This document shows, piece after piece, positions 24,938-50,570 of a DNA stretch of 64,000 nucleotides. This stretch comes from an uncultured Candidatus Saccharibacteria bacterium. Its GTDB lineage: Bacteria; Patescibacteriota; Minisyncoccia; UBA6257; 1-14-0-10-44-23. Location: contig CAYMXN010000001.1 in NCBI GenBank assembly GCA_964394435.1, forward strand, positions 235,928 through 299,927, written 5' to 3'. The position numbers were made by a program, and so were the translations under genes. Positions within the stretch are counted from its first letter, which is position 1. Every line of letters starts with the position of its first letter. Under the pieces are notes generated by a model. That model made no database searches. It worked only from the letters and a program-made list of their open reading frames with translations, and had not been told where the DNA came from.

Positions 24938-26302
24938 ATGAACCCATTCATTAAAATCCGCGCGCTAGCCCGTATTCCTGTGCTTATCCTTGGCGATATC
25001 GCTATTTTTTATGCTTCACTTTTTATCGCCTTAAGTATTCGCTATGGTCTCGCTCCACTTAGCCACCTTGCTGACCACTTGATTCCTTTTTCAATCGGAC
25101 TGCTCCTCTGGCTCGTTATCTCATACATCAGTGGCCTCTATGAGCGTGCTTCGCTTAAAAATACCTCGTCATTTTATGCGACCTTTTTAGTATCGCTGGT
25201 TATTGAGATGCTCGCACTTATCGCCCTCTTCTATTTAGTTCCGGCATTTGGCATCGCTCCAAAAGCAAACCTCTTTATTTTTACCGCTGTTTTTGCCGTA
25301 CTTGAAGCTATTTGGCGCGCCATACTTAATATCATATTGCGCGCAAGCGGTTCGCGCATACGGCTTATGTTTCTTGGTGCTAGCCACAACATGACCGAAA
25401 TCAAAGAACATCTTGAGCGCAATCCGCAGCTTGGATATGAAGTAATCACTTGGTACAGCGATGAGCCAACGCACCAGACCAGCGAACAGCTTTTACGCGA
25501 AATCGCTACTAAGCAAATCCACTTTGTTGTCGTTTCTGCACAGCTTGAAAAAACAAAAACGTTTAAAGACTTTGCGTATAAAAATGCGGTTAGTGGAGTT
25601 CCGCTTCTTAGTCTTGCAGTGCTCTACGAGCAAATCTTTTCCCGCGTATCACTGGCCGAACTTGAAGAGTCGTGGTCACTTAAAGATATAACGTATGAAG
25701 CTCGCCTGTACCAATCAATAAAGCGTGTTCTTGAACTTTTGGGCGTGCTCCTTATTGGAATTATTGCACTTCCCTTTGCGATTATTACCGCACTCGCCAT
25801 CCTACTTACTTCTCGCGGCCCTGTTTTTTATAAGCAGCGACGCGTTGGTAAACGAAAACAGCTTTTTTGGCTTTATAAGTTTCGTAGTATGTATGCTGAA
25901 AAAGAAAAAAACCCAGACGCTGATGCGAGTAAGCCAATTTGGACCAGCGGCAATGACCAACGCATCACTCCAGTTGGGAAGTTTATTCGCTTCACTCATC
26001 TCGATGAGCTTCCGCAGCTTATCAATATAGTAAAGGGAGAGATGTCGTTTATCGGCCCGCGCCCCGAGCGACCAGAATTTGACGCGGATTTAGAGCAAAA
26101 GATCCCGTACTACGAGCTCCGCTATCTCGCTAAGCCTGGTATTACCGGCTGGGCGCAAATCAACTATCGATACGGCGCATCGGTTGAAGACGCGTACGCT
26201 AAATTGCAGTACGACCTGTACTACCTTGCTCACCGATCACTGCTTTTAGATATTTCCATCCTGCTCAAAACTATTAAAAAGTTTTTTGTGCAGGTTGATT
26301 AA
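24938..26302 (+). CDS. polyprenyl-phosphate sugar phosphotransferase (WbaP/bacterial sugar transferase family)
   Basis: N-terminal TM helices. C-terminal motifs SRGPVFYKQRRVGK, LDELPQLINIVKGEMSFIGPRPERP. Confidence 0.85.
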   Translation: MNPFIKIRALARIPVLILGDIAIFYASLFIALSIRYGLAPLSHLADHLIPFSIGLLLWLVISYISGLYERASLKNTSSFYATFLVSLVIEMLALIALFYLVPAFGIAPKANLFIFTAVFAVLEAIWRAILNIILRASGSRIRLMFLGASHNMTEIKEHLERNPQLGYEVITWYSDEPTHQTSEQLLREIATKQIHFVVVSAQLEKTKTFKDFAYKNAVSGVPLLSLAVLYEQIFSRVSLAELEESWSLKDITYEARLYQSIKRVLELLGVLLIGIIALPFAIITALAILLTSRGPVFYKQRRVGKRKQLFWLYKFRSMYAEKEKNPDADASKPIWTSGNDQRITPVGKFIRFTHLDELPQLINIVKGEMSFIGPRPERPEFDADLEQKIPYYELRYLAKPGITGWAQINYRYGASVEDAYAKLQYDLYYLAHRSLLLDISILLKTIKKFFVQVD

Positions 26303-27223
26303 ATGAACAAGCGACTCAACATCATCGTAACGGGTGGCGCTGGATTTATCGGAAGCCATATCGTTGATCTCTATATTGCCGCCGGTCATCACGTTGCGAT
26401 AATCGACAACCTTTCAACTGGCTTCAAGAAGAATATTCATCCTCGAGCGCGTTTCTACCATGCGGATATTCGCGACAAACAAGCGATCGACAAAATTTTC
26501 GCCATCGAGCGGCCAGATATCGTAAATCATCAAGCGGCACTCGCTGCGGTAGTAAGTGGTGAAAAAAACCAAAATGCGGCGTATGAGATTAATGTGATTG
26601 GTACTATAAACCTCTTAACTACCCCTACCCCGATTAAACGGTTTATCTTCGCCTCAACTGGCGGAGCGATGTATGGACTTAATGCCCGGCCAAGACCAAC
26701 AAATGAAGAGGCGCCGCGCCGCCCAGTTTCTGCATACGGTTTTTCAAAACTCCTCGCTGAACAGGCGGTTATCCACTTTGCCCGCGAACGAAAATTTTCG
26801 TATGTAATCCTCCGTCCGGCAAACGCTTTTGGTCCTCGCCAAAATCCAAAAGGAGAAGCTGGAGTTGTCGCCCTATTCACCTATATGATGAAACACGATA
26901 TCCAGCCAATCATCTATAATAAGAAGGCTACTCGCGATTATGTATATGTTGGTGATATTGCCGCTCTTAATCTCGCCGCGCTCTCCGGACCAAAGAATGT
27001 AATTTGTAATGTTGGGACCGGCATTGAGACTTCGAACGAGCAGATTTTTAAGCTCATTGCGAAGCAGTGCGGCTATGCGGGTAAGCCAGTTTATAAACTA
27101 GCGCGACAAGGCGAAGTGCTTCATGCAGCGCTTGATGCTCGCTATGCGCGCAAAATCTTTAAGTGGAAACCAGCTGTCAATCTAACTACAGGTATTACCC
27201 ACGTATATGCTCAAAAAGATTAA
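26303..27223 (+). CDS. NAD-dependent sugar epimerase/dehydratase (SDR family)
   Basis: VTGGAGFIGSH Rossmann motif, YxxxK region. Confidence 0.8.
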   Translation: MNKRLNIIVTGGAGFIGSHIVDLYIAAGHHVAIIDNLSTGFKKNIHPRARFYHADIRDKQAIDKIFAIERPDIVNHQAALAAVVSGEKNQNAAYEINVIGTINLLTTPTPIKRFIFASTGGAMYGLNARPRPTNEEAPRRPVSAYGFSKLLAEQAVIHFARERKFSYVILRPANAFGPRQNPKGEAGVVALFTYMMKHDIQPIIYNKKATRDYVYVGDIAALNLAALSGPKNVICNVGTGIETSNEQIFKLIAKQCGYAGKPVYKLARQGEVLHAALDARYARKIFKWKPAVNLTTGITHVYAQKD

Positions 27224-28679
27224 ATCACTTCTTTTTACCAACACGACCGCCGGACAAACGATTGTTAAGAATACGTTTTGGTTAATGACGGGCGAGATCG
27301 TCGGACGCTTAATTCGCGCCGGCATCGTTATTTACTCTGCGCGCGTCTTAGGTGCCGGTGAGTATGGAATTTTTTCCTATGCGATATCGGTAGCCGCATT
27401 TATTACTGTCTTTTCTGACATCGGACTCTCGGCCGTACTCACCCGCGAAACATCAAAAAGTCCCGAACTACGCAGTAAGTATCTTGCTAATTCATTTTTT
27501 CTTAAAGTAATCCTTATTAGCCTGAATATTCTTTTTGTACTCTTTGTTGTCCCGTTTATCTCTAAACTCGGTGGCGTTAATCAGCTCCTTCCGCTGGTCG
27601 CTGTGATGATTATTTTTGAAAGCCTACGCGAATTTGGCTTTGGTTTTAATCGTGCACTGGAAAAAATGGAGCGTGAGGCGTATGTGAAAGTAATTCTCAA
27701 TCTCTCCATAGCCGCCCTAGGCTTTATCGCGATTTTTACTCACCCAAACGCCTACACACTGCTTATCGCATATGTACTTGGCGCCCTTATTGGATTTTTA
27801 GCCACCGTATGGTTTTTGCGCGCTCACCTGCGTGAACTTTTTGGTGCGATTGATTTTTCGTTTGCGTGGCACATATTCAAAAACGCCTGGCCGGTCGGAC
27901 TCCTCACTGTCTTAGGTGCGGTAATGATCAATACCGATATGATTATGCTTGGCTGGTGGCTTGATAAAAATCCAGTCGGGTATTACGCTGCTGCACAGAA
28001 AATTATCTTACTACTCTACATTATTCCAACACTGCTTTCCTCGGCAGCATTTCCGGCATTTGCCCGTCTTGCGCACAGCTTAAATCATGAGCGCTTCCGC
28101 GCCATCCTTGAGCGAACGATCGCCTTCGCCTTTTTAATCGGCATTCCGCTCGCTTTTGGCGGACTCATCTTGGCGCGGGAAACAATTGCGCTTCTCTATG
28201 GCACCGAATATCTCCCGGCCGCAACGACATTTCGCATTCTGATGGCAACGATGTTTGTCGTTTTCCCAAGCACGATTATTACTAACGCACTTTTTGCTTA
28301 CAATCAGCAAAAACGTTTTATTTGGTACGTTGGTCTTGGTGCGCTCTCAAACGCGTTTTTTAACTATCTCTTTATTCCACGCTACGGCATCGAGGGAGCG
28401 GCGGTTGCTACGCTTAGCTCTCAAATTCTTTCTAACTTTTTGATTTGGCGAGCGATGAAAAAAGTAAACTACTTCGTGATTATTCCGCGCCTCACGCGTA
28501 TCTGTATTGCCGCCCTACTTATGTCCTTGTATGCGTATGGCGCGAATCAACTCGGGGTTTCTGCCCTTACTATTATCCCTACAAGCATCGCCCTCTATGG
28601 TGTTTTGATCGTTTTATTTAAAGAACCACTGCTTCGCCAGGCGAAGCAGGCTGTTTCAGTAGACGAGTTAAAGGGCTAA
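27207..28679 (+). CDS. oligosaccharide flippase (Wzx/MOP superfamily)
   Basis: 490 aa, about 12-14 TM helices, polysaccharide-biosynthesis-protein-like. Confidence 0.7.
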   Translation: MLKKIKSLLFTNTTAGQTIVKNTFWLMTGEIVGRLIRAGIVIYSARVLGAGEYGIFSYAISVAAFITVFSDIGLSAVLTRETSKSPELRSKYLANSFFLKVILISLNILFVLFVVPFISKLGGVNQLLPLVAVMIIFESLREFGFGFNRALEKMEREAYVKVILNLSIAALGFIAIFTHPNAYTLLIAYVLGALIGFLATVWFLRAHLRELFGAIDFSFAWHIFKNAWPVGLLTVLGAVMINTDMIMLGWWLDKNPVGYYAAAQKIILLLYIIPTLLSSAAFPAFARLAHSLNHERFRAILERTIAFAFLIGIPLAFGGLILARETIALLYGTEYLPAATTFRILMATMFVVFPSTIITNALFAYNQQKRFIWYVGLGALSNAFFNYLFIPRYGIEGAAVATLSSQILSNFLIWRAMKKVNYFVIIPRLTRICIAALLMSLYAYGANQLGVSALTIIPTSIALYGVLIVLFKEPLLRQAKQAVSVDELKG

Positions 28680-28716: not shown

Positions 28717-29538
28717 TTACTTTTTATATCTCCGAAAAACTGCGAGACGCAGCTTATCTGAAATGAGCGATCCAAACGCCGAGTATGCGAGGTACCGCAT
28801 CCAGGCTTTCAGTTTTGAGATACGATAGCGCGGATACAATCCTTTATAGCGACTTATAATCGCAATCGCTTGGCGAAGCTGGGCGCGTTTATTACTCCAA
28901 CTGATTGAGCCGCTACGCAAGGTAAACCCCAGGGCGTAATCAGGCAGGTTGGCAAGTTTACCCATTGTGCCGAGCTTGAGCCAAAGATCATAGTCTTCAA
29001 CACGATGCGTAAGGGGGAGTTCGCTATACCCTCCCGCCGCTACTGCTGCTAGGCGACGGAAAACAACGCTCGCGTGCGCGAAACAATTGCGATATAAGAT
29101 ACGGCTACGAATCTGCCCATCTGTTTGTGGATTTTGATACCTAAAAAGCTCTTTACTGTTTTCATCAACTACCATTACCGCAGTACCAACCAGCACGTGA
29201 TCTGGATTACTTTCGAGAAACTCTATTTGATTTTTAAGCTTATTAACATCTGTCCAAAAATCATCATCATCAATACGAGCGATAAACTCACCAGTCGCCT
29301 CTTTAAGTCCGTGATTAAGCGTTTTTTGGATACCAAGATTGTGCGGATTACGTAGTGGGCGGACGCGCTTATCAAGCTGCGCGTACTTTTGAATTAAAAG
29401 CGGCGTTTTATCGGTCGAACAGTCATCGATGATGATTAACTCAAAATCACGATAGCTCTGTACGAGCACGCTTTTAATTGCACGCTCGATAAAGCGTTCG
29501 CCATTGTAGACCGGCAGCAAAATTGAGACACGTGTCAT
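28717..29538 (-). CDS. glycosyltransferase family 2
   Basis: SILLPVYNGERFIERAIKSVLVQSYRDFELIIIDDCSTD. Confidence 0.8.
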   Translation of the reverse strand: MTRVSILLPVYNGERFIERAIKSVLVQSYRDFELIIIDDCSTDKTPLLIQKYAQLDKRVRPLRNPHNLGIQKTLNHGLKEATGEFIARIDDDDFWTDVNKLKNQIEFLESNPDHVLVGTAVMVVDENSKELFRYQNPQTDGQIRSRILYRNCFAHASVVFRRLAAVAAGGYSELPLTHRVEDYDLWLKLGTMGKLANLPDYALGFTLRSGSISWSNKRAQLRQAIAIISRYKGLYPRYRISKLKAWMRYLAYSAFGSLISDKLRLAVFRRYKK

Positions 29539-29540
29539 GA

Positions 29541-30614
29541 TTATTTATTTTCAACCCCCATCACCTTAAAGATGTGATCAAACCGATTAGCGTACGTATG
29601 CTCGCGAACGGTGCGCTCATATCCAGCTTTACGAATCGCCTCGCGTTCCTCGTCATGTGCGAGATAATACTTCGCCTTCTCGATTAAGTCGGCGGTGTCG
29701 GTAAAAAGAATAATTTCCTTGCCAGGCACGAAATACTCCTCAACATTATCAGCGCGGTCGGTCATAAGTAGTGCGCCAGAACCAGGAACTTCAAAGTTTC
29801 TCGTTTTGATTTGGTACGTATTGAGCCGGTCGATGTATGCGCGCAGTTGATCAAGCCAGGTACCAATTGGATTCATATGATACTTACCCGCGCTATCTTT
29901 ATTGATAAAGATACGAGCGATACCTTTCAAGTTGAATGCTCCGGAACTACGGGCAAAATTTAGATTTATTTTACTCGCGCAAAACGCTTTAATCATCGCC
30001 TCGCCAAAAATACGGCCGTTTGGCCACCCTGGGCCAAAACACTCTACCTTAACTCCTGCATCTTTCAGTGCTTGAATAATCTCCGGGCGCTTACCATATG
30101 GCTGGCCGATAAATGAGACGTCGTACTGATATGGGACATCGTAACGCTTATAGAGCGACGGACTGCACGCCCACTGCGTTTTAATCACATTGGTTAAGCC
30201 GGCTTTTTTATAGCGAGGAAGCGAGCCATTATCGGTTGTCGATACCCAGTGAAACAGCGGTGCGTAGTGCTTACTGAAGTTATGAAATCTCCAGTGATCG
30301 TCGCAATACCAGTTATAGGTTATCGCGCCAGATTTTTCTTTAATCTCCTTCAGCGTTTCTTTGTTAATTTCGTCGTTAAACAACACAAAGAAGCAGAGGT
30401 CTGGCTTTTGCTCATATACTGTTTTTAATAAGCGAGCGTTCATCTGCTCTTTACCCACTTCATGCATCACCTCATCAAACGGGAAGTAGATAACCTTATG
30501 CTTACCACCCTGATACGCAACCAATGACTCGTAAAAGTTGTAATGCTCGAGACTATAGCCCCCGCGCTTCGGATCGCCATAATCGTACTTCATTGCGACA
30601 TACAGGATTTTCAT
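29541..30614 (-). CDS. hypothetical glycosyltransferase-like protein (CgeB/DUF3880-like?)
   Basis: 357 aa in a glycan locus. Weak family assignment. Confidence 0.35.
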   Translation of the reverse strand: MKILYVAMKYDYGDPKRGGYSLEHYNFYESLVAYQGGKHKVIYFPFDEVMHEVGKEQMNARLLKTVYEQKPDLCFFVLFNDEINKETLKEIKEKSGAITYNWYCDDHWRFHNFSKHYAPLFHWVSTTDNGSLPRYKKAGLTNVIKTQWACSPSLYKRYDVPYQYDVSFIGQPYGKRPEIIQALKDAGVKVECFGPGWPNGRIFGEAMIKAFCASKINLNFARSSGAFNLKGIARIFINKDSAGKYHMNPIGTWLDQLRAYIDRLNTYQIKTRNFEVPGSGALLMTDRADNVEEYFVPGKEIILFTDTADLIEKAKYYLAHDEEREAIRKAGYERTVREHTYANRFDHIFKVMGVENK

Positions 30615-30618
30615 ATGC

Positions 30619-31677
30619 TTATTTTTTAGTTGCGTTTGTGTGCTGGGCGATCATTTCGCGCAATGTGCGCTCGAGGTCGTATTCGTATTTCCAGTCCGGA
30701 TAGTGCTTTTGGAACTTAGATACATCAGAGATATACCAGATGTGGTCACCGCGACGGTTCTGATCAACATATTCATAATCAGCCTTTTTACCGCTAATCT
30801 TTTCAATCATCTCGATCGCCTCAATCATCGAACAGTTACTAAACCGACTGCCGCCCATATTGTATACCTCTCCTTTTCGCGGATTGAGATAGAAGTGATA
30901 GAACGCGTTAATTAAATCGTACGAGTGGATATTGTCGCGAACCTGCTTACCCTTATACCCAAAAATTTTATATTTTTTACCGCTTACTACGCATTTGACG
31001 AGATAGCTCAAGAATCCGTGCAGCTCTACGCCAGCGTGCGACGGACCAGTTAAGCAGCCACCGCGAAAAACCGCCGTCTTAAGTCCAAAATACTTCCCGT
31101 ACTCCTGCACGAGAATGTCTGCCGCAACCTTACTCGCACCAAACAAGCTATGAAGTGAGTCGTCGATACTCATCGTCTCATCAATACCTTTTTGATACGG
31201 GTGCTTCGGATCTATCTCCCAGCGCTTCTCGGTTTCGATAAGCGGAAGCGTATTTGGTTTATCTCCATATACCTTATTTGTCGAGGTAAAAATAAAGACT
31301 GCTTCAGGCGAGTAGAGCCTAAAGTGCTCGAGGATGTTCAGTGTACCGTTTGCGTTAACCGTAAAATCGGTAAGTGGCTCTTTTACAGCCCAGTCGTGCG
31401 ATGGCTGCGCTGCGGTGTGAATAATTAAATCAAACTTATGCTCCTTGAAGAGCTTAGTGAGCTCCTCTTGGTTGCGAATATCAAAATTATAGTGCTTAAA
31501 ATGCTGATGTTTATCTTTGAGTTGTTGATTGCGACTCTTCGTACTCCCATCTGGGCCGAAGAAGTAGCTACGCATATCGTTATCAATACCCACAACCTCA
31601 AAGCCCTTGTCGGCGAAAAAGCTGACGGCTTCTGAACCAATCAGCCCTCCCGAGCCTGTAATTAACACTTTTTTCAT
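30619..31677 (-). CDS. NAD-dependent epimerase/dehydratase (CDP-sugar 2-epimerase-like)
   Basis: [16 protein letters not shown] Rossmann motif. 352 aa. Confidence 0.7.
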
Positions 31678-31709
31678 AGCAATATTTTGTCTTAATTTCT
31701 AAATTTTGT

Positions 31710-34313: not shown

Positions 34314-34318
34314 ATGCG

Positions 34319-34939: not shown

Positions 34940-34940
34940 A

Positions 34941-36534: not shown

Positions 36535-36537
36535 ATC

Positions 36538-38262: not shown

Positions 38263-38268
38263 ATAGTT

Positions 38269-39117: not shown

Positions 39118-39139
39118 ACGAGTGGGTAATTGTTATTTT

Positions 39140-40711: not shown

Positions 40712-40719
40712 AAATTTAG

Positions 40720-42246: not shown

Positions 42247-42257
42247 CTCGGCTTTGC

Positions 42258-43440: not shown

Positions 43441-43570
43441 ATCGCCTATTTTAGACGAAGTGTCAAAAGGTGTCAAAAAGGTTCATGGGGATAATCGGTA
43501 ATAAAAAGAGCGGACGATGTATCTCTACATTGTCCGCTCATCGCCCGCCTGTTGGCGGACGGGTGCGAAA

Positions 43571-44263
43571 CTAGTGACCGAAGCGGTAACCGTAACCCTG
43601 TGCACGCGCCCGATGGGCCGCCAACATCACCTCTACAAACGTGTGGCTCATGTCGTACGACCACTCTCCCTCGATCGGGAGCGTATCGAGAGAGTACCAC
43701 TCGAGGCCACTCGCCTCGGCCTGGTTGTCTCCGCTCTTCACCCCGAACACGACCTGCTGGTCGTGCGTACCCGCGTACGTCACGATGTGGGTCGAGGCGT
43801 AGCTGTGCTTGCCCGGGTCGTGGGAGAATCCGTTGCGATTACGACCGTCCATCTGAGGCGCGTACTGGCGCATACAGACCGGATGGGCCCAACCGAGCGG
43901 CAGCTCGACGTCGATGCCGAGATCGCTCTTGTAGTGGAACTTCAAGGCGTCCTCGATGGACTGGTAAAGTCCGACCACGCCGCCGACGATGGCGAGCTTG
44001 CCAGGAAAGCGCCCCGTCCGACGACGGATGACACCGCCGAGCAACTGACCCGTCTTCGGGTCCTGCTTGACGATGACGCCGTCGACACAGGGCACGGCAC
44101 CGAGCTTCGTACGCAAGGGCCAGACCGCTCCCGAGACCCGCCCGTCCGGCTGGACGAGCTGATCGAGATCCGAACGCTGGGCGAGGATCTCGGCGAGTTG
44201 CCGAGTGCTGTAGCCCACCAGCCGATCCGCAAGGTCGGCAGTCGAATCAGTCCTTTCGGACAT
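43571..44263 (-). CDS. GC-rich foreign-looking ORF, 231 aa; Nudix-fold-like with degenerate Nudix box
   Basis: GC jump with GC3 bias. GGAGGT RBS. Region VIVKQDPKTGQLLGGVIRRRTGRFPGKLAIVGGVVGLYQSIEDALKFHYKSDLGI follows Nudix fold topology but lacks the REx2EE catalytic residues. C-terminal LEWYSLDTLP…YDMSHTFVEVML resembles the Nudix C-terminal helix. Confidence 0.5.
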   Translation of the reverse strand: MSERTDSTADLADRLVGYSTRQLAEILAQRSDLDQLVQPDGRVSGAVWPLRTKLGAVPCVDGVIVKQDPKTGQLLGGVIRRRTGRFPGKLAIVGGVVGLYQSIEDALKFHYKSDLGIDVELPLGWAHPVCMRQYAPQMDGRNRNGFSHDPGKHSYASTHIVTYAGTHDQQVVFGVKSGDNQAEASGLEWYSLDTLPIEGEWSYDMSHTFVEVMLAAHRARAQGYGYRFGH

Positions 44264-44314
44264 CGGAAACCTCCGGGAAATACCCTCCGCAACCGATTGT
44301 TGTGGATTAGATAT

Positions 44315-44343
44315 GTTATAGCATAAAATATGCCCAAAGTCAA
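44315..44343 (-). promoter_or_regulatory. sigma70 promoter TTGACT-N17-TGcTATAAC on the minus strand driving the GC-rich ORF
   Basis: -35 at 44338-44343 and -10 at 44315-44320, read as the reverse complement. Confidence 0.55.
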
Positions 44344-44396
44344 TCACCTGCTGTTGCGCCCACAAATCAAAAGCCCGCCAGCTGGCGGACTTTTGA

Positions 44397-46631
44397 TTAC
44401 TTCGTGCTTACTCCCAAGGCTTCAAAGACTGGCATAAATTGAGCGGCGTTCGGATTGCCTAGGAAGAAGTCTGGGACGTGAGCTAAGAACTGCCGTAGGT
44501 ATGTAGCTGCTTCAGCATTTTGGCCAGTAAAAGCCAGTACGACACCGAGCTTGAGCTCGGACTCGTAATCAGCTTCGTTGTACTTGAGTGCGAGACGATA
44601 TAACCTCGCCGCTTCTTCATAATTCTCTGCGTCACCATAATACCCGGCAACAATACGAGCCTCTGGTGCAGTGTTTGGGTTGCGCCCCCTGCTCTTTGCT
44701 AGTTCGATCTCTTCAAATCCTTTTTTCTGATCGCCAACTTCAAATGAAAGCAACCCATAGAAAAAGTGCGGGTCAGCAGCTACCGGATCAAGGTCGATAG
44801 CGTTTTGCATTTCTTTGAGCGCCGCTTTTTTATCTCCCTGGAGCAAGCGAAGCTTTGAGAGCATATAATACGTCTGCTGACGATTGGATGAGATACTTAT
44901 CGCCTTACGAATATTTTCCTCGATCAACTTGAAATACTTTTTATCGAGGTTTTGAAAAATCATTCCGGCATCGGCGCGTACAATGTACAGATAGTAGTTA
45001 TTCGGATCAGCCTGGATAGCCTTATCAAACTGCGCGAGTGCGTAGTCAACAACTGCTATCGTATTTGAAATTTCCTGCTGCTGCACCATCTGCGACAACG
45101 CACTTACCATGCTCTGACTGATCTCGTGCTGATATGGCTCGTTGAGTGCGATTCCTTTTTTATACGACTCGATCGCCTTATCTGGCATTCGATTTACGAA
45201 ATAGTTCAGCCCCCAGAACTGGAGGTGGTTTGCATATACAATTCTACTATTCACTACTACTCCGATGAGCAACCCGGCAACCACTACGCCTACTACGCAG
45301 CCGCCAAAGACCTTCTTTGTTGTAGTAAACGAACCTACCTCGCTGGTTGCACGATGCCGATCTGGAACATACTGGTCGACAAGCGCAATAAACACAATGA
45401 GCATCAAGTACGAGCCAAACGCATCAAAGACGAAAAAGTTTTGAGCGAGATAAGCGACTAGGGCGCCGAGTGCGAATGGGCGGAGCTCCAGAGGCGCGAA
45501 GCGAATAATCGTTCGGATAAGCAAGCCAATAAGTAGTACGTAGGCGAGAAAACCGACTACGCCACTTGTCGCTAAAATCTCAAGATATACGTTGTGCGGC
45601 TTATCCCAGTACGTTTCAGCAAAGCCAGTACGAAGCAAAACTGGGTTATAACGCTGATCAAATGGGTATTTAAAGTTTTCCCAACCATATCCCAGTAGTG
45701 GCTTTGTTTTAATAATATCGATTGCGGTTTTCCAGGCGATTAAACGGTTACCGACGGTCGCATCAAAACTTGAGATTTGAGCTAAGCGATTGAGCCCTGG
45801 GACCTTTTGCCATACAGCTGCGCTGCGGGTAGCAAAAAATACTCCACCAAAAATTATCATCGCGACAATACCGAGTAGCGGGATGTTTTTTACTATTGAT
45901 GTGCGCACTGTAAATGGCTTGAGCTTACGAAGAGCAACATACCCAAGCGTACTCATTGCGCCCAATGTCAAACCAACCAAAGCACCACGCGTCTGTCCGA
46001 GTAAGATAACAACGGCTAGGGTTGCGATGCCAAACCATAGCCAAACTCTTACCCCTTTTCGCTGGGTCGTACGAGCAAGCCAAGCTCCAATAAACATATT
46101 AAACATAAGATATGGAGCTAAAAATGCTGGGTTGCCCATAAAACTACCTGGGCGTTGAGCATCACTCCCCTCAAACACCGTTGGTGCGATTTTTTGGATG
46201 ATCGCAAAAAAGCCAACGATAAAGGCTAAGCCAAATAGATAGCTCATAAATGAGCGCCAGTTAATACGGCGACGCATCGCGACTAATACCAAGAAGTATG
46301 CGTAAAAGTGTAGGAGTGAGAAAATACCAATCGCGCGCTCTTGAATTGACCAAAAACTTCGATGCAAATTAACTCCCGTCAAACTAGCGAGCGCGAGCAT
46401 CCCCAAAAATAAACCTAGGGCGAGTACTAACTTACTTGCCCGAGGACGGTACTCTTTGCGAAATACTGCGAGCCCAATCCAAGCAGCTACTGTTAGCTCA
46501 ACTAAAATATGAAAGCCAAATACCTTTAAGGTTACGAGTGGATAAATGAGGTTATTAATATAGAGCAAAATGGCGAGCGGGCAGATATACAATCCCCAGC
46601 GCACGATTTTCGATAATACGTCTGTGTTCAT
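44397..46631 (-). CDS. O-antigen ligase-like (Wzy_C) membrane protein with C-terminal TPR repeats
   Basis: 744 aa. About 12 TM helices in the N-terminal half. The C-terminal half has repeated TPR-like helices (…YYMLSKLRLLQGDKKAALKEMQNAIDLDP…). Confidence 0.7.
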   Translation of the reverse strand: MNTDVLSKIVRWGLYICPLAILLYINNLIYPLVTLKVFGFHILVELTVAAWIGLAVFRKEYRPRASKLVLALGLFLGMLALASLTGVNLHRSFWSIQERAIGIFSLLHFYAYFLVLVAMRRRINWRSFMSYLFGLAFIVGFFAIIQKIAPTVFEGSDAQRPGSFMGNPAFLAPYLMFNMFIGAWLARTTQRKGVRVWLWFGIATLAVVILLGQTRGALVGLTLGAMSTLGYVALRKLKPFTVRTSIVKNIPLLGIVAMIIFGGVFFATRSAAVWQKVPGLNRLAQISSFDATVGNRLIAWKTAIDIIKTKPLLGYGWENFKYPFDQRYNPVLLRTGFAETYWDKPHNVYLEILATSGVVGFLAYVLLIGLLIRTIIRFAPLELRPFALGALVAYLAQNFFVFDAFGSYLMLIVFIALVDQYVPDRHRATSEVGSFTTTKKVFGGCVVGVVVAGLLIGVVVNSRIVYANHLQFWGLNYFVNRMPDKAIESYKKGIALNEPYQHEISQSMVSALSQMVQQQEISNTIAVVDYALAQFDKAIQADPNNYYLYIVRADAGMIFQNLDKKYFKLIEENIRKAISISSNRQQTYYMLSKLRLLQGDKKAALKEMQNAIDLDPVAADPHFFYGLLSFEVGDQKKGFEEIELAKSRGRNPNTAPEARIVAGYYGDAENYEEAARLYRLALKYNEADYESELKLGVVLAFTGQNAEAATYLRQFLAHVPDFFLGNPNAAQFMPVFEALGVSTK

Positions 46632-46764
46632 ATAGCTTTGATACTACCAAGTTTGCTCCCCTTTTTCCACCAAAGCAAACGCCCCCTTGCGGGGGCGTTT
46701 GCCGGTTTACTCCACTACACAAATTGCTTTATGTAGTTCGAGCTATCCCATGCTGACGTTACTA

Positions 46765-49700
46765 CTATTCGTAGCTGACGTTGGCGATGGTGAACGGAAC
46801 AACCGTTGACTCGATCGAGATGTTGCTCGTCGTGCCATCGTTGAACGTGATACCCGAGGCAGCGTTGATAAGCGCTGAGAGGGAGTCAGAGGTGTTGGAA
46901 CCGTTGTAGAAGCTTGAGGAGTTCACACGAACCTTAGCAGCCTTCGTGGTGCCTGGGTCAACTGTGTATGACGGGTTAAACGTCACAGAACAGGAGTTAC
47001 CAGCACCTGGAGTGCAAGTCTGTTGAGCTGCACTGCCGAGAGCTGAGTTGGTGTTGGCGTCAAGAAGGTCAACCGTGAAAGCGGTCGAACCGTTGCTGAC
47101 AGCCTGACCAGAGAACTTGACCGTTACAGTACCAACTACAGCCTGGTAGGCCGAGTCAGCCGTAAAGTTCAAGGTTGCAAGGTCGTCAACCGCTACACGA
47201 GTACGGCCAGTGGATGAACCAAGGACCGCGCTTGAGAGCGAGAGCTTCGTGCGGTAAACCGTGACAGTGTTACCTGAAGCAGAACCAGACTTCGTAGCAG
47301 ACGTGTTCGAGTCCTTACCATACGCCGTAACGAAGTACGTCGGCTGGGAGAGACCGAATGCGTGGGTGCTGTTTGAAGTGGCACCACCAGAGCTGTACGT
47401 CGCAACATCACCCTTTACCACGAGGTTAACCGTACCGTTTTTCGGAACGATAACTGGGTTGAGGCTGAAGGTCGCCGTAGCAACTGAACTGCCAGACATC
47501 GTCATCGAGATAGGACCAGCTACCTGAGTAGAGCCGTTCCAGAGCGTTACGTTCTGGAATGAAGCGATACCAGCTGAACCGTTACCTACCGTGTCGGTGA
47601 GCGAGATGTCGGTTACGCGGATGTCCTCAACGTTGTCCGCGGTAAGGCGGATCGTTAAGAGGGCGTTGCCGGTTGAACCCATTACTACGTACTTAGAAGG
47701 CGCCGTGTCGGAGCCAGTAGCGACCGTAAGGGTTGGACCAGACGAGATTACGATACTCTGACCGTTAACTGCACCTGGGAAGGTAATCGCCGAGTTCGAG
47801 ATCGAACCCAAAGCGCTCCAACCGATGATGTCGATAACTGCAGAGTGAGTCGCAGCCGTCGAGCTGGTCAAGATGTCGGCGTAAACGTCAATCGTTACTG
47901 AACCACCCTGTGGAACAGTGACTGGGGTCGCAGCGCTGAACGCGAGCGAGGTTTCCGCATCACTGATCGTTGGGCGGGTCGTTCCGAACTGAGTCGAACC
48001 GATCATAACCTTCATGTTCTGCATGTCGAAGTTCGCGTTGCTGTCCTTGTCAAAGGTAAGCGACGAAAGGGTCGCACCCTGGGCTGAAGAAGCAGTTACG
48101 ATGAACGAAGCGACACGAGCGTTGTTGCTACCAGCGATAAACGTTGGTGAGTTAAACGCTGAGTTTACAGCAACCGTGAGCGGAGTCGTCGTAACAGCGA
48201 GCGTCGCGCCGGTTACAGAACCGGATGAAGCTGACTGGAACGAGGTCTGACCCTCAAGGTTTGTGCTGTTACCTGGCAAGCTGCCCTGGAGCGTCGTGAC
48301 GTCAGCACCCGAGAGGATGTCAACGACGAGCGAGACTACACGGACAGTGTTGGCCGGAACAATGTAGTTAATTGGGGATCCGGACGTACCGAAGTGGCAA
48401 GTAATCGAGCCGGAAGCGAGCGTACACTGACCGGAGGAAGAACCACCAGCAACAGTGTTGATCGCGTTACCAACCTGACCACCTACGTCATCGATAAGGC
48501 GGATGTTTTGGATGTCGTCCGTCGGAGCAGTAGCCCAGTTAGTACCGGAACCAACCTGCGAGATGGTCGCATCTAAGAACTTAACTTTAACTGCCTCACC
48601 AGCTGCATAAATGCGAGCGCGGAGAAGAGTTACGCCAGAGGCACCTACTGGAATTGGAGCAGTTGGGGTGTCTGAAGCGAGAGATACCGTGATCGAACCG
48701 GTGTTGATCGTAATCGTTGTCTGGTTCGTTGAGGTGATGGAGACCGTGATACCAGTGTTGTACTGGGTGTCGATCGCCGTGACCTTAAACGGCTGGAGCA
48801 ATGAGAACGTCAAAGTGCGGTTAGGGCTGCCGTTGATGTCAGCGAAAAGCTGAATCGTCGAGTTACCCGTGTTGAGCACGATACCCTCTGGGAAGTTGAA
48901 GTTGGTGTTCGTCGCGCCAGCTGCGAGAGTCGCAACCTGCGTGCCGTTAACCAAAAGCCTCAAATTCTGAACATCGCCTGGGTTAGCTGAACCGACCATG
49001 CTGAACTGCATGTTGGTGAGCTTGACCTTGCTGTTAGAAACGTTCGCAGTCCAAGATGAAACGAGGACCGAGGCCGTACCAGCATCAACTGTTGAACCTA
49101 CCGCGTTAGCAGTAAGAGTCATCGTTGAAAGTGATGGGTTGGAAACTGAAGTGACAGTCAAGGAAGCGGTGGAAACTGGAAGACCAGTAACCGTCGCACC
49201 CGTCGCCGTTACACCCTTAAGCTGCCAAGCGAGCGTGTTGCCAGCTGAAGCAGATGAAGAGAGGTCAAGGCGGAGCTCACCAGTCCAAGTCTGACCAGCT
49301 GGGATCATCAAGTTGAGACCCGAGAAGGTTGCGACTGAGTTGGTGAGTGACTGGAACTGAGCAACAACTTCACCGGTCGCCGCGTTGGCGAGGTAAAGGT
49401 TGTTGATGTTGCTGTCAGATACGACACCAACCTTGTTGAATGTAAGGCCAGTAACCGTTACTGCAGCGCCAGCTGGAGCGGTGAAAGCGAAGCGGCCAGC
49501 GTTGATCTGACCAGCTCCGGCGATTGCCGAGCCAATTGGGTTGTTACCAGCGAGGGTAACGTTAAGAGTGGAACCGGCTGGGAGTGAAACGCCCGTGCCA
49601 GTACCAGTGCCAGTGTTCACAGAGCCAGTGAAGGCTGCGCGAGACTTTGCACCGAAGTAACCAGAAGCTGGGGTGATGCCAGCAGAAGTCTGCCAGGCCA

Positions 49701-50034
49701 TAACCGCCGCCTTGGTGATGCTACCGAAGTAGCCCGTTGGGGAAACACTGAAGTGACCCTTTGACGCAAGAACCTGCTGGAGGCAAGTAACATCAGCGCC
49801 CTTTGAGCCCACGGTGAGGTCGCGGGTGAAGGAACATGCTGAGTTGCCGCCAGTCGAGTTGTTGAGCTGGGACTGCAGGTTAGCCAACGTTGCGAGCAAC
49901 GCGTTGATCTGAGTCTGGATGTCTGAAGCTGATTGCGCACCGGCAACCGCTACAAATGAACCAAAACCAGAGAGCGTAGCCGCAGTGGTTACCGTCAGGA
50001 TTACTGAGGCAACCTTGTTGCTAAATTTACTCAT
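46765..50034 (-). CDS. giant secreted surface protein (1089 aa) with peptidoglycan-binding domain and long Thr/Ser/Gly-rich beta-repeat region (S-layer-like)
   Basis: Signal peptide. PG_binding_1-like segment (GSKGADVTCLQQVLASKGHFSVSPTGYFGSITKAAVMAWQ). About 900 aa of low-complexity T/S/G/A/V-rich repeats. About 500 nt untranslated leader upstream. Confidence 0.7.
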   Translation of the reverse strand: MSKFSNKVASVILTVTTAATLSGFGSFVAVAGAQSASDIQTQINALLATLANLQSQLNNSTGGNSACSFTRDLTVGSKGADVTCLQQVLASKGHFSVSPTGYFGSITKAAVMAWQTSAGITPASGYFGAKSRAAFTGSVNTGTGTGTGVSLPAGSTLNVTLAGNNPIGSAIAGAGQINAGRFAFTAPAGAAVTVTGLTFNKVGVVSDSNINNLYLANAATGEVVAQFQSLTNSVATFSGLNLMIPAGQTWTGELRLDLSSSASAGNTLAWQLKGVTATGATVTGLPVSTASLTVTSVSNPSLSTMTLTANAVGSTVDAGTASVLVSSWTANVSNSKVKLTNMQFSMVGSANPGDVQNLRLLVNGTQVATLAAGATNTNFNFPEGIVLNTGNSTIQLFADINGSPNRTLTFSLLQPFKVTAIDTQYNTGITVSITSTNQTTITINTGSITVSLASDTPTAPIPVGASGVTLLRARIYAAGEAVKVKFLDATISQVGSGTNWATAPTDDIQNIRLIDDVGGQVGNAINTVAGGSSSGQCTLASGSITCHFGTSGSPINYIVPANTVRVVSLVVDILSGADVTTLQGSLPGNSTNLEGQTSFQSASSGSVTGATLAVTTTPLTVAVNSAFNSPTFIAGSNNARVASFIVTASSAQGATLSSLTFDKDSNANFDMQNMKVMIGSTQFGTTRPTISDAETSLAFSAATPVTVPQGGSVTIDVYADILTSSTAATHSAVIDIIGWSALGSISNSAITFPGAVNGQSIVISSGPTLTVATGSDTAPSKYVVMGSTGNALLTIRLTADNVEDIRVTDISLTDTVGNGSAGIASFQNVTLWNGSTQVAGPISMTMSGSSVATATFSLNPVIVPKNGTVNLVVKGDVATYSSGGATSNSTHAFGLSQPTYFVTAYGKDSNTSATKSGSASGNTVTVYRTKLSLSSAVLGSSTGRTRVAVDDLATLNFTADSAYQAVVGTVTVKFSGQAVSNGSTAFTVDLLDANTNSALGSAAQQTCTPGAGNSCSVTFNPSYTVDPGTTKAAKVRVNSSSFYNGSNTSDSLSALINAASGITFNDGTTSNISIESTVVPFTIANVSYE

Positions 50035-50570
50035 TGATTTGTTTTTCGTAGAAACTTAGTTAAATTCTTTGTAATTAATGTGTGGTTGTTCCGGGAAATC
50101 ACCCCCTCTTTTGGCTCCTTCGCTTACCCGCCACACGTGACGGATAAAAGGATCGACCGCTACAAAAGCTTAAGGATGACTTTAGTAACTTTGTTGAGCT
50201 CTCTTACTTTCTTTTACTCCCGATAAAAGAAAAGAGCTTCGCACAAATGCGAAGCTCTTTTCTAGATTGGAAGTAATACGCTAAACGCAACTAAAATAAA
50301 CCCGCGGCTTGGCGCACAGACCTTTTATATAGAAAGCCTACATAAAAGCACGGCCAAACCGGTTGCGTATACCGTATTACCCCCACTAGACCAAGCCTCA
50401 CACTCGGGCTAATGAACGTACTTACCTAACAGAAACAGTATATCAAATAACGGAGAAATTAGCAATACATGTGGATAAATCCGTCAAGAAGGCGAAGTTA
50501 ACCTCATACACTGCTCATAAGGTATAACGAGCAGGAATCAAATCTATTACACCCCTCCCCCTGGGCAAAA

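What the first reader, a model, noticed from the sequence alone, without database searches (positions are those of the whole stretch)
24938..50570. Candidate complete surface-protein O-glycosylation system: glycan locus + Wzy_C/TPR transferase + giant Thr/Ser-rich PG-binding protein
The gene order runs glycan locus, then the 744-aa Wzy_C/TPR membrane protein, then the 1089-aa secreted Thr/Ser/Gly-rich surface protein.
- This mirrors S-layer glycosylation clusters in which a WsaB-like O-oligosaccharyl:protein transferase (Wzy_C domain) moves a lipid-linked glycan onto Thr/Ser/Tyr of the S-layer protein.
- The target candidate has a PG-binding anchor, hundreds of potential O-glycosylation sites and a long (about 500 nt) leader typical of highly expressed S-layer genes.
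- If the organism is a reduced-genome bacterium, a self-contained protein O-glycosylation system of this size would be notable.
Basis: inference. Interest (0 to 1): 0.6.

Follow-up and report, generated by a model that had tools for sequence, protein, structure and literature searches.

The report
Candidate surface-protein O-glycosylation module in Parcubacteria
In a small-genome Parcubacteria (candidate phyla radiation) bacterium, the gene for a large wall-anchored surface protein is followed by a WaaL/PglL-type glycan-transferring membrane enzyme carrying an outward-facing TPR domain, and this pairing recurs across the lineage, so the enzyme most likely puts sugars on that protein, although no experiment has shown it.

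Summary
They comprise two glycan-building operons, a 744-aa Wzy_C+TPR membrane protein, and a 1089-aa secreted Ser/Thr-rich protein with a PG_binding_1 anchor.

**Main new evidence: gene linkage**
- Starting from the enzyme, 18 of 19 metagenome loci have the surface-protein gene directly upstream.
- Starting from the surface protein, 35 of 58 species-level loci have a Wzy_C gene directly downstream, 31 of them with TPR.
- 47 of 67 loci have a DeoR-type HTH gene directly upstream.
- The pairing persists where no glycan locus is nearby, so the conserved core is HTH, surface protein, then ligase. The adjacent glycan locus is specific to this lineage and varies between strains.

**The enzyme**
- It keeps the WaaL/PglL Arg-Arg-His catalytic set. 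The His marks ligases rather than polymerases.
- An extra helix places the TPR domain outside the cell.

**The surface protein**
- It has a signal peptide, a coiled coil, a PG-binding domain, a Thr/Pro/Gly linker and about eight β-sandwich domains.

**Verdict**
- Best reading: a dedicated O-oligosaccharyltransferase and its target.
- Glycosylation, S-layer identity and the "500-nt leader" remain unproven.
- It is a new member of a known kind.

The parts
50571..51281 (-). DeoR-type HTH protein (236-aa ORF; gene callers give 222 aa). It is the conserved upstream neighbour of the surface-protein gene and a candidate regulator.
   Evidence: Pfam HTH_DeoR at residues 173-225, E 2.2e-6. A homologue lies directly upstream of the surface-protein gene in 47 of 67 species-level loci.
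50035..50570 (-). 536-nt intergenic region upstream of the surface-protein gene. It contains a terminator-like hairpin (50261-50230) and one GGTCGAT motif (50159-50153). No Shine-Dalgarno sequence precedes the ATG.
   Evidence: Sequence. Hairpin -26.3 kcal/mol, z -6.0. No Rfam family reaches its threshold. A gap of 255-1062 nt between the HTH gene and the surface-protein gene is usual in relatives. GTCGA motifs are enriched in this position in relatives.
46765..50034 (-). 1089-aa secreted surface protein. Signal peptide is about residues 1-33, a coiled-coil helix covers 36-58 and PG_binding_1 covers 79-130 (nt 49645-49800). A disordered Thr/Gly linker spans about residues 139-156 (nt 49567-49620). 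About eight β-sandwich domains fill residues 155-1089. It is the proposed glycan acceptor.
   Evidence: Pfam. Composition. AlphaFold2 model with mean pLDDT 84.9. Foldseek matches only generic Ig-like/macroglobulin domain arrays. The linker is hypervariable and T/P/G/S-rich in 40 homologues. Homologues are full-length at 40-66% identity across Paceibacteria.
46675..46702 (-). GC-rich hairpin between the surface-protein gene and the enzyme gene. It is a likely partial terminator or mRNA-stabilising stem.
   Evidence: Sequence. -30.1 kcal/mol, z -4.6.
44397..46631 (-). 744-aa WaaL/PglL-type (Wzy_C, GT121-like) membrane enzyme. The transmembrane catalytic domain is residues 1-462 (nt 45246-46631). 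The Pfam Wzy_C match is nt 45537-46031. Residues R215, R296 and H346 form the catalytic set. Helix 437-462 is an extra transmembrane helix. The extracytoplasmic TPR domain is residues about 465-744 (nt 44400-45239). It is the proposed O-oligosaccharyl:protein transferase.
44367..44394 (-). Intrinsic terminator that ends the surface-protein/enzyme transcription unit.
   Evidence: -23.6 kcal/mol, z -6.2, followed by a T-rich tract.
43571..44365 (.). 0.8-kb GC-rich insert (62-66% GC against about 45%) between the enzyme gene and the glycan operon. It holds two overlapping antisense ORFs with no family match. It is probably not part of the system.
   Evidence: No Pfam or NCBIfam hit. Present at 84% nucleotide identity in the related strain L001.
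43195..43476 (-). Sigma-70-like promoter match (43476-43448, 11 of 12 positions) followed by an 81-aa HTH_17 gene (43195-43440) at the head of the minus-strand glycan operon.
   Evidence: Pfam HTH_17, E 3.6e-10. 96% identical in L001.
28717..43172 (-). Glycan assembly operon of 15 genes. It encodes epimerase/dehydratases, a Wzx-like flippase (508 aa), a DegT aminotransferase, a 2OG-Fe oxygenase, methyltransferases, two GT2, one GT4 and GT1-like transferases. The Wzx-like flippase is the only integral-membrane protein in this operon, so there is no separate polymerase.
   Evidence: Pfam. Hydropathy scan. Strain-variable compared with L001.
24938..28679 (+). Convergent operon encoding the initiating phosphoglycosyl transferase (Bac_transf, 454 aa), an epimerase (306 aa) and a Wzx flippase (490 aa).
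   Evidence: Pfam. Transmembrane helices.

Best explanation
**What it is.** The 744-aa protein is a dedicated O-oligosaccharyl:protein transferase of the WaaL/PglL (Wzy_C, CAZy GT121-like) class. Its main substrate is the 1089-aa peptidoglycan-anchored surface protein encoded immediately upstream.

**Proposed sequence of events.**
1. The Bac_transf enzyme starts a glycan on undecaprenyl phosphate. The cytoplasmic glycosyltransferases and sugar-modifying enzymes of the two neighbouring operons extend it. This step is inferred from Pfam families.
2. A Wzx flippase moves the lipid-PP-linked oligosaccharide to the outer face of the membrane. This is inferred.
3. The surface protein is exported by Sec. 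It probably oligomerises through its N-terminal coiled coil and binds peptidoglycan through PG_binding_1. The domains are shown; their behaviour is inferred.
4. The enzyme binds the lipid-PP donor with R215 and R296. It uses H346 to activate a Ser/Thr (or Tyr) hydroxyl of the acceptor. The residues are shown to be conserved and aligned with the WaaL catalytic residues; the chemistry is inferred.
5. The extracytoplasmic TPR domain holds the acceptor protein. Its location is inferred from topology and its role from analogy. The Thr/Pro/Gly-rich flexible linker after the PG-binding domain is the most likely first acceptor site. This is inferred.

**Regulation.** The upstream DeoR-type HTH protein probably regulates the unit. 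This is inferred from conserved adjacency only.

**Conserved unit.** The conserved unit is HTH, surface protein, then ligase. The glycan supply locus is exchangeable.
For: **Enzyme class.**
- Wzy_C scores above the Pfam cut-off.
- A profile of the transmembrane domain hits WaaL 7tpg_B and the 610-aa 'Oligosaccharyltransferase' 9rmk_A.
- R215, R296 and H346 align with CmWaaL R191, R265 and H313. R296 and H346 also align with R298 and H349 of 9rmk_A.
- The roles of those WaaL residues are given in PMC10920833. PglL numbering is given in PMC3643930.

**Ligase rather than polymerase.**
- Polymerases and SEDS proteins of the same clan carry Asp/Glu where ligases carry His.
- His is invariant in this family.

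**Dedicated link to the surface protein.**
- 18 of 19 metagenome loci found with the enzyme have the surface-protein gene directly upstream on the same strand, with gaps of -7 to 628 nt.
- 35 of 58 species-level loci found with the surface protein have a Wzy_C gene directly downstream.
- The pair persists with unrelated flanking genes and with no glycan locus nearby.

**TPR location and precedent.**
- A Lys/Arg-rich loop at residues 419-440 is followed by an extra helix after the 12-helix WaaL core, which places the TPR domain outside the cell.
- Wzy_C+TPR is the architecture reported for the S-layer O-oligosaccharyltransferase WsfB and for PglL.

**Acceptor candidate.**
- The disordered linker between the anchor and the first β-sandwich is low-complexity and T/P/G/S-rich in all 40 homologues inspected.

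**No canonical WaaL acceptor expected.**
- A curated Parcubacteria genome lacks lipid A/LPS genes (PMC5220378).

**Donor supply.**
- The window encodes one initiating phosphoglycosyl transferase, two Wzx flippases and about six glycosyltransferases, and no other Wzy-like membrane protein.

**Surface exposure.**
- The glycan locus diverges sharply between strains. The enzyme is 92% identical, but Wzx is 75%, the 523-aa protein 51% and DegT 38%, and some genes are replaced.
Against: - There is no experimental or proteomic evidence of glycosylation.
- The acceptor of a WaaL-family enzyme cannot be read from its sequence.
- The PglL-specific Pfam model (PF15864) and the PglS-type model (PF11846) do not match.
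- The best NCBIfam hit, TIGR03097, scores 46 bits against a cut-off of 188.
- About 40% of surface-protein loci have no Wzy_C gene within 10 kb, and no alternative transferase is seen there. Glycosylation may therefore be dispensable, or the enzyme may be encoded elsewhere in those genomes.
- Several relatives carry one or two extra ligase-type paralogues next to the pair. This shows the enzymes may have several acceptors or donors.
- T/P/G-rich linkers are common in unglycosylated proteins.
- The link between this particular glycan locus and this enzyme rests on proximity in one lineage only.
Confidence: 0.55

Rival explanations
1. The enzyme is a ligase, but its acceptor is not a protein. 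It would attach the lipid-PP-linked glycan to peptidoglycan, to a glycolipid anchor or to another wall polymer. The surface protein would then be a neighbour because both build the same wall layer, for example if the protein interacts with that polymer.
For: - CAZy GT121 ligases occur in Gram-positive bacteria. They have been hypothesised to link capsule to peptidoglycan (PMC10920833).
- The surface protein is itself a peptidoglycan binder.
- 40% of surface-protein loci lack the enzyme nearby.
- No LCP-family ligase is encoded in the window.
Against: - The enzyme lies next to this one protein gene almost without exception (18 of 19 loci), even where no glycan or wall-synthesis genes are near.
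- The enzyme has an outward-facing TPR domain, a type usually used for protein binding.
- The protein has its own PG_binding_1 anchor and needs no secondary polymer.
Confidence: 0.2
2. The enzyme is a general O-oligosaccharyltransferase that glycosylates many exported proteins, as PglL does in Neisseria. The adjacent surface protein would be only one substrate, or not the main one.
For: - PglL-type enzymes are promiscuous and often sit next to just one of their substrates, typically pilin (PMC3643930).
- The profile aligns with 9rmk_A over a longer stretch (positions 91-392) than with WaaL (179-381). This stretch includes N167, which aligns opposite PglL Q178.
- Type IV pilus genes lie near the pair in some relatives.
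Against: - Nothing argues directly against this reading. It extends the main explanation rather than contradicting it.
- The near-obligate adjacency to the surface-protein gene favours a dedicated pair.
Confidence: 0.12
3. The enzyme is the Wzy-type polymerase of the adjacent Wzx-dependent glycan locus and makes a capsule-like or wall polysaccharide.
For: - The Pfam family is named Wzy_C. One source labels a Nomurabacteria homologue 'O-antigen polymerase'.
- The glycan operons contain no other polytopic membrane protein that could be the polymerase.
Against: - The catalytic position holds an invariant His, as in ligases. Polymerases of this clan have Asp/Glu there.
- No chain-length regulator (Wzz/PCP) is present in the window.
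- The gene travels with the surface-protein gene and not with glycan loci.
Confidence: 0.06
4. There is no functional link. The adjacency would be inherited gene order in a slowly rearranging part of Parcubacteria genomes.
For: GroEL/ES, an M48 peptidase and LemA also lie near the pair both in the window and in the 37%-identity relative L002.
Against: - In more distant genomes the flanking genes are entirely different: ClpB, an NTP transferase, HU, an ECF sigma factor and pilus genes. The three-gene core is kept all the same.
- The association holds down to about 30% identity.
Confidence: 0.05

Closest known systems
WsfB with the S-layer protein SpaA (Paenibacillus alvei), and WsaA+WsaB with SgsE (Geobacillus stearothermophilus): S-layer protein O-glycosylation (slg) clusters
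   Same: - A Wzy_C-domain membrane transferase is combined with a TPR module. The two are fused in WsfB and separate in WsaA/WsaB (PMC2943079).
- It is encoded near the gene for a wall-anchored, multi-domain surface protein and near a lipid-linked glycan assembly locus.
- En bloc transfer takes place outside the membrane.
   Different: - The anchor here is PG_binding_1 plus a coiled coil, not SLH or another SCWP-binding domain.
- The transferase lies directly downstream of the target gene, and the pair is conserved without the glycan locus.
- The organism is a Parcubacteria member.
- Sequence relatedness to WsfB/WsaB was not tested, and no glycan or lattice has been shown.
PglL (Neisseria) and the pilin-linked TfpO/PilO O-oligosaccharyltransferases
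   Same: - They belong to the same Wzy_C superfamily.
- R296, P311, G314, G316 and H346 align with PglL R298, P313, G316, G318 and H349.
- The enzyme gene lies next to a substrate gene in most genomes. In Schulz et al. 2013, 21 of 31 lie next to pilin genes.
- The preferred acceptors are flexible low-complexity segments. This point is from general knowledge.
   Different: - There is no match to the PglL_A model PF15864.
- PglL N180 has no conserved counterpart here.
- The C-terminal domain here is a long canonical TPR array.
- The neighbour is not a pilin.
- Treating 9rmk_A as PglL is my inference from its residue numbering.
WaaL O-antigen ligase (Cupriavidus metallidurans, PDB 7TPG/7TPJ)
   Same: - It is the best profile match (E 3.7e-12).
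- The Arg-Arg-His catalytic set is conserved.
   Different: - WaaL is about 400 aa with no extra helix or TPR domain.
- Its acceptor, lipid A-core, is not expected in Parcubacteria (PMC5220378).
- Sequence identity is 15%.
TIGR03097 (PEP_O_lig_1), the putative O-glycosylation ligase associated with exosortase A systems
   Same: It is the best NCBIfam hit. That family is likewise a Wzy_C enzyme proposed, without proof, to glycosylate co-encoded secreted proteins.
   Different: - The score of 46 bits is far below the 188-bit cut-off, so this protein is not a member.
- No exosortase or PEP-CTERM proteins are present here.

Membership tests
Wzy_C / CAZy GT121-like lipid-PP-glycan ligase superfamily (WaaL, PglL, PilO) | Match to Pfam PF04932 above the curated cut-off | tested here: met
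   76.8 bits against a cut-off of 31.7, at residues 201-365.
Wzy_C / CAZy GT121-like lipid-PP-glycan ligase superfamily (WaaL, PglL, PilO) | WaaL-type polytopic fold | tested here: met
   [not shown]
Wzy_C / CAZy GT121-like lipid-PP-glycan ligase superfamily (WaaL, PglL, PilO) | Two Arg that bind the diphosphate, plus the catalytic His (CmWaaL R191, R265, H313) | tested here: met
   R215, R296 and H346 align with them. R296 and H346 are invariant and R215 is at least 90% conserved. The residue roles are from PMC10920833.
Wzy_C / CAZy GT121-like lipid-PP-glycan ligase superfamily (WaaL, PglL, PilO) | Uses an undecaprenyl-PP-linked glycan as donor | not testable with these tools
   This needs biochemistry.
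PglL-type protein O-oligosaccharyltransferase | Match to the PglL_A model (PF15864) | tested here: not met
   No hit even at max E-value 10.
PglL-type protein O-oligosaccharyltransferase | Residues conserved in PglL but not in enteric WaaL (Q178, N180, G316, G318; PMC3643930) | tested here: inconclusive
   N167 aligns with Q178, and G314/G316 align with G316/G318. N180 has no conserved counterpart, and CmWaaL also has the G-x-G.
PglL-type protein O-oligosaccharyltransferase | A protein Ser/Thr is the acceptor | not testable with these tools
   Only context is available: 18 of 19 loci lie next to the surface-protein gene.
WsaB/WsfB-type S-layer O-oligosaccharyltransferase | Wzy_C domain combined with a TPR module | tested here: met
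   Pfam Wzy_C plus TPR families. The model shows about 8 TPR-like helix pairs at residues 483-718. The architecture of WsfB is taken from PMC2943079.
WsaB/WsfB-type S-layer O-oligosaccharyltransferase | Encoded with the target surface-protein gene and a glycan assembly locus | tested here: met
   True in this window. Only the protein-enzyme pairing is conserved.
WsaB/WsfB-type S-layer O-oligosaccharyltransferase | Sequence clustering with WsaB/WsfB rather than with WaaL | not tested
   WsaB/WsfB sequences were not retrievable with the tools.
Bacterial S-layer protein | N-terminal wall anchor followed by a chain of β-sandwich domains | tested here: met
   Pfam PG_binding_1. The model shows about eight β-sandwich domains.
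Bacterial S-layer protein | SLH or another known S-layer anchoring or lattice domain | tested here: not met
   Only PG_binding_1 was found. Foldseek finds generic Ig-like/macroglobulin arrays and no S-layer protein among the top 50 hits.
Bacterial S-layer protein | Forms a 2-D lattice and is among the most abundant proteins | not testable with these tools
   This needs cryo-ET or proteomics.
Wzy-type polysaccharide polymerase | Asp/Glu at the position of the ligase His (clan GT-C1, PMC10920833) | tested here: not met
   His is invariant in the family and in its TPR-less paralogues.
Wzy-type polysaccharide polymerase | A chain-length regulator (Wzz/PCP) in the locus | tested here: not met
   None was found among the window ORFs scanned.
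LPS O-antigen ligase WaaL in the strict sense | A lipid A-core acceptor is present in the organism | not tested
   Only 64 kb of the genome was seen. A curated Parcubacteria genome lacks lpxC and kdsA (PMC5220378).

The most novel reading that the evidence does not exclude
The three-gene unit may encode the long-unidentified outer coat of Parcubacteria cells. The unit comprises the DeoR-type HTH gene, the ~1100-aa coiled-coil/PG_binding_1/β-sandwich protein gene and the TPR-bearing ligase gene. In this reading the protein is the main S-layer or sheath subunit seen by cryo-EM on these ultra-small cells, and the ligase is its dedicated glycosylation enzyme. The exchangeable glycan loci would give each strain its own surface sugar type. 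A conserved GTCGA repeat element ahead of the gene would control its expression. That would be a lineage-wide envelope module specific to this part of the candidate phyla radiation.
Probability: 0.3. Interest if true: 0.75.

Novelty: new member of a known kind. Interest (0 to 1): 0.58.

Why it matters
**An open question becomes concrete.** How candidate-phyla-radiation cells build their envelope is acknowledged to be unclear (PMC5220378). Cryo-EM shows an apparent S-layer or sheath on a Parcubacteria cell, but no protein has been assigned to it (bioRxiv 10.1101/2022.04.20.488981). My searches of the held paper library found no description of this gene pairing.

**What the module offers if the reading is right.**
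- It gives a concrete candidate for the major surface glycoprotein of hundreds of Parcubacteria species, together with its modifying enzyme.
- The surface is where these episymbiotic or host-dependent cells meet hosts and phages.
- The claim can be tested without cultivation. One route is heterologous glycosylation in E. coli. Another is mining existing groundwater metaproteomes.
- It would extend Wzy_C-type protein O-glycosylation to a lineage without LPS.
- It offers a compact TPR-fused transferase of possible use in glycoengineering.

Tried and rejected
- **Transmembrane domain alone against PDB sequences.** There was no meaningful hit. A family profile was needed.
- **Whole-protein profile and Foldseek searches against the PDB.** Both were swamped by TPR proteins. 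WaaL came only at rank 18, and 9rmk was not returned. Structure therefore could not rank WaaL against PglL.
- **Foldseek of the surface-protein model.** Only generic multi-Ig or macroglobulin-like arrays were found, with no S-layer protein.
- **Self-BLAST of the surface protein.** No internal sequence repeats were found, so the β-sandwich domains are old and diverged.
- **Rfam on the upstream gap.** Only sub-threshold chance hits on the hairpin were found.
- **Promoter and terminator consensus scan.** Counts were no higher than in shuffled sequence. The long-leader idea was rejected as unsupported.
- **Search for an alternative transferase next to the surface-protein gene in loci without a Wzy_C neighbour.** The neighbours are heterogeneous: an epimerase-GT4 fusion, a solute-binding protein, a β-lactamase-like protein, SecA, a recombinase and further PG_binding_1 proteins.
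- **Context of the nearest relatives outside the candidate phyla radiation.** It was uninformative.
- **NCBIfam.** It gave only a far sub-threshold hit to TIGR03097.
- **Considered and rejected: the TPR-less paralogues in relatives are the missing polymerases.** They keep the ligase His.

Full report
**1. Observation**

- On the plus strand, 24938-28679 encodes a Bac_transf initiating phosphoglycosyl transferase (454 aa), an NAD-dependent epimerase and a Wzx-type flippase.
- Converging on it from the minus strand, 43172 down to 28717 encodes 15 genes. These are three further epimerase/dehydratases, a second Wzx-like flippase, a DegT aminotransferase, a 2OG-Fe(II) oxygenase, several methyltransferases, two GT2, one GT4 and GT1-like transferases.
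- 44397-46631 (-) encodes a 744-aa protein. Its Wzy_C domain scores 76.8 bits against a cut-off of 31.7, and it has C-terminal TPR repeats.
- 46765-50034 (-) encodes a 1089-aa protein with a signal-like N-terminus and a PG_binding_1 domain.
- The 1089-aa protein has 27% Ser+Thr and 8% charged residues. Other proteins of the window have 10.4% and 25%.
- A hydropathy scan finds no polytopic membrane protein in the glycan operons other than the phosphoglycosyl transferase and the two flippases.
- The rest of the window holds housekeeping genes: GroEL/ES, a short AlaRS, sigma-70, DnaG and the CCA-adding enzyme. No LCP-family ligase or chain-length regulator is present.
- Homologues of both key proteins come from Parcubacteria/Paceibacteria metagenome-assembled genomes. 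Some are labelled Saccharibacteria by one automated submission.

**2. The enzyme**

- An AlphaFold2 model built on 34 homologues is confident (pLDDT 91.5, pTM 0.89).
- A profile of the membrane domain alone (alignment A3, 25 sequences) matches two solved proteins.
  - WaaL 7tpg_B matches at E 3.7e-12.
  - A 610-aa chain deposited as 'Oligosaccharyltransferase' (9rmk_A) matches at E 5.6e-9.
  - From its residue numbering (Q178, N180, R298, P313, G316, G318, H349), I infer that 9rmk_A is Neisseria PglL as numbered by Schulz et al. (PMC3643930).
- In these alignments R215, R296 and H346 fall on CmWaaL R191, R265 and H313. R296 and H346 also fall on R298 and H349 of 9rmk_A.
- The same paper reports that SEDS enzymes and the polysaccharide polymerases of the same clan carry Asp or Glu at the His position.
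- R296 and H346 are invariant, and R215 is conserved in at least 90% of sequences. The protein is therefore ligase/transferase-type, not polymerase-type.
- After the 12-helix WaaL core comes a Lys/Arg-rich loop (residues 419-440) and one more transmembrane helix (437-462). This places the TPR array (about 465-744) on the outer face of the membrane.
- Neither the PglL-specific Pfam model PF15864 nor PF11846 matches. The best NCBIfam hit, TIGR03097, is far below its cut-off.

**3. The surface protein**

- The model (pLDDT 84.9; pTM 0.49, as expected for beads on a string) has the following parts:
  - a signal peptide;
  - a 23-residue helix with a conserved LQAQIAALLAQI-type heptad pattern;
  - the PG_binding_1 domain;
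  - a disordered linker;
  - about eight β-sandwich domains running to the C-terminus.
- Foldseek returns only generic Ig-like or macroglobulin-like arrays.
- There are no detectable internal sequence repeats.
- The family is conserved at full length, with 40-66% identity over about 1100 residues. At least 417 relatives occur among GTDB species representatives.
- The linker between the anchor and the first β-sandwich is hypervariable. In all 40 homologues inspected it is a low-complexity run rich in Thr, Pro, Gly and Ser. In the window it reads NTGTGTGTGVSLPAGS.
- An N-terminal wall anchor followed by a chain of β-sandwich domains is also the plan of Bacilli S-layer proteins. [quoted passage not shown]
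- No S-layer-specific domain is present in the 1089-aa protein.

**4. Linkage**

This is the main new evidence.

- In a relative whose enzyme is 37% identical, the order is HTH_DeoR, a 120-aa ORF, a 1104-aa protein, Wzy_C/TPR, a second Wzy_C, then a glycan locus.
- In a Liptonbacteria genome (32% identity) and another genome (30%), the HTH, an ~1160-aa PG_binding_1 protein and Wzy_C/TPR are kept. The flanking genes there are ClpB, an NTP transferase, HU, an ECF sigma factor and type IV pilus genes, with no glycan locus.
- I fetched 77 loci from species-representative genomes using the surface protein as query.
  - 35 of the 58 loci with at least 3 kb downstream carry a Wzy_C-family gene within 1.5 kb on the same strand. 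31 of these have TPR.
  - 47 of 67 loci have the HTH gene directly upstream.
- In the other direction, I fetched 31 metagenome loci using the enzyme as query.
  - 18 of the 19 loci with at least 1.5 kb upstream have the surface-protein gene immediately upstream. Gaps are -7 to 628 nt.
  - Three shorter contigs show its 3' end.
- Glycan-synthesis genes lie within 10 kb in only about 12 of the 77 loci. This figure comes from single-sequence phmmer searches, so it is a lower bound.
- The conserved unit is therefore HTH, surface protein, then ligase, and the enzyme is nearly always tied to this one gene.
- Where the neighbour is missing, the downstream genes are unrelated and no other transferase takes its place.
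- Several relatives have one or two extra TPR-less Wzy_C paralogues beside the pair, and these too keep the ligase His.

**5. Transcription units in the window**

- A strong hairpin follows the surface-protein gene (46702-46675, -30.1 kcal/mol).
- A hairpin plus T-tract terminator follows the enzyme gene (44394-44367, -23.6 kcal/mol).
- Next comes a 0.8-kb segment of 62-66% GC with two overlapping antisense ORFs and no family match.
- After that come a good sigma-70-like promoter match (43476-43448, 11 of 12 positions), an 81-aa HTH_17 gene and the glycan operon.
- The glycan operon is therefore a separate unit.
- Compared with a strain whose enzyme is 92% identical, the HTH_17 protein is 96% identical. 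Wzx is 75%, the 523-aa protein 51% and DegT 38%, and other genes are replaced. This is the usual behaviour of an exposed-glycan locus.
- Upstream of the surface-protein gene, the 536-nt gap contains a 16-bp perfect hairpin about 190 nt before the ATG (50261-50230, z -6.0).
- Nothing supports a 500-nt leader.

**6. Interpretation**

- The most economical reading is a dedicated protein O-oligosaccharyltransferase acting on the protein encoded just upstream. It would use lipid-PP-linked glycans supplied by whichever Wzx-dependent locus the strain carries.
- Four things are shown:
  - the enzyme's class, fold and catalytic residues;
  - the inferred outside location of its TPR domain;
  - the domain plan of the surface protein;
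  - the gene linkage.
- Four things are inferred:
  - the nature of the acceptor;
  - the acceptor site (the linker);
  - the use of the neighbouring glycan;
  - the regulatory role of the HTH protein.
- The main rival is ligation to a non-protein wall acceptor. This has been hypothesised for GT121 enzymes of Gram-positive bacteria.
- The polymerase reading is disfavoured by the His and by the gene linkage.
- Pure inherited synteny is disfavoured by the changing flanking genes.

**7. Comparison with known systems and novelty**

- In function and layout the module resembles the S-layer glycosylation clusters of Paenibacillus alvei and Geobacillus stearothermophilus. There a Wzy_C transferase is fused to, or accompanied by, a TPR module (PMC2943079).
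- It also resembles the pilin-adjacent PglL/TfpO systems (PMC3643930).
- Membership in the Wzy_C/GT121-like superfamily is met on three tested features.
- Membership in the PglL subfamily fails the PF15864 test.
- Relatedness to WsaB/WsfB could not be tested.
- Searches of the held paper library found no description of this pairing in Parcubacteria.
- The literature states that the envelope of these organisms is not understood and that a 'glycosylated S-layer' is only a guess based on glycosyltransferase counts (PMC5220378).
- I rate it a new member of a known kind.
- Interest is moderate to good, because it turns an open question about the cell surface of these organisms into a testable one.

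Noticed in passing
L010-L086, last ~120 nt before the surface-protein start codon; window 50153-50159 (-) has one copy: A short motif, GTCGA (usually AGGTCGAT/C or AGTCGAAA, often 2-3 copies about 20 nt apart), sits just upstream of the surface-protein gene in 59 of 67 distinct loci. Its density there is about 16 times the locus background. 33 of 153 motif clusters fall in the 0.5% of sequence that lies upstream of this gene. No Shine-Dalgarno sequence is evident there. It could be an operator for the adjacent HTH protein or a 5'-UTR element. The window itself has only a single GGTCGAT, 119 nt upstream.
   Followed up: partly
window 50230-50261 (-): A perfect 16-bp hairpin with an A-rich 5' flank and a T-rich 3' flank lies inside the gap between the HTH gene and the surface-protein gene (-26.3 kcal/mol, z -6.0). 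It is probably the terminator of the HTH gene, or an attenuator. It argues against a 500-nt leader.
   Followed up: partly
window 43571-44365: A 0.8-kb island of 62-66% GC sits in a ~45% GC genome, between the enzyme gene's terminator and the glycan operon's promoter. Two overlapping ORFs lie on opposite strands (264 aa minus, 269 aa plus). Public gene calls chose the plus-strand ORF, whose product is Arg/Val/Leu-rich and looks like an antisense artefact. The minus-strand frame has GGAGG followed by an ATG at 44263. No family matches either ORF. The island is present at 84% nucleotide identity in a related strain. It may be horizontally acquired.
   Followed up: partly
L001 3265-12290 compared with window 34000-43440: The glycan operon differs sharply between two strains whose ligase is 92% identical. 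L001 has NUDIX and NTP-transferase genes and a second DegT gene instead of the 2OG-Fe oxygenase and methyltransferase genes. The shared genes drop to 38-75% identity.
   Followed up: yes
L002 12333-13655; L012, L018, L024, L034, L055, L062 (downstream); L015, L018, L019, L025, L063 (upstream, opposite strand): Many relatives carry extra Wzy_C paralogues beside the pair. One type has 440-530 aa and no TPR. Another has about 630 aa. All keep the ligase-type His. This suggests several ligases with different donors or acceptors.
   Followed up: partly
L029 10001-22753: One genome has the surface-protein gene followed by two further ORFs of about 1100-1180 aa before the Wzy_C/TPR gene. The first of these was scanned and carries PG_binding_1, fn3 and Ig-like domains. 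The second was not scanned.
   Followed up: no
window 13799-13870 and 12550-13848: The listed GTG start of the HI0933-like flavoprotein ORF overlaps the tRNA-Ala gene on the same strand. The true start must lie further downstream.
   Followed up: no
window 53202-54557 (-): This is a 451-aa protein with a signal-like N-terminus and no match in Pfam or NCBIfam. It lies between the sigma-70 and AlaRS genes and is kept in that position in contigs of the same strain. Its function is unknown.
   Followed up: no
window 17217-17804 (-): This is a stand-alone GGDEF diguanylate cyclase domain protein (195 aa), which hints at c-di-GMP signalling in this small genome.
   Followed up: no
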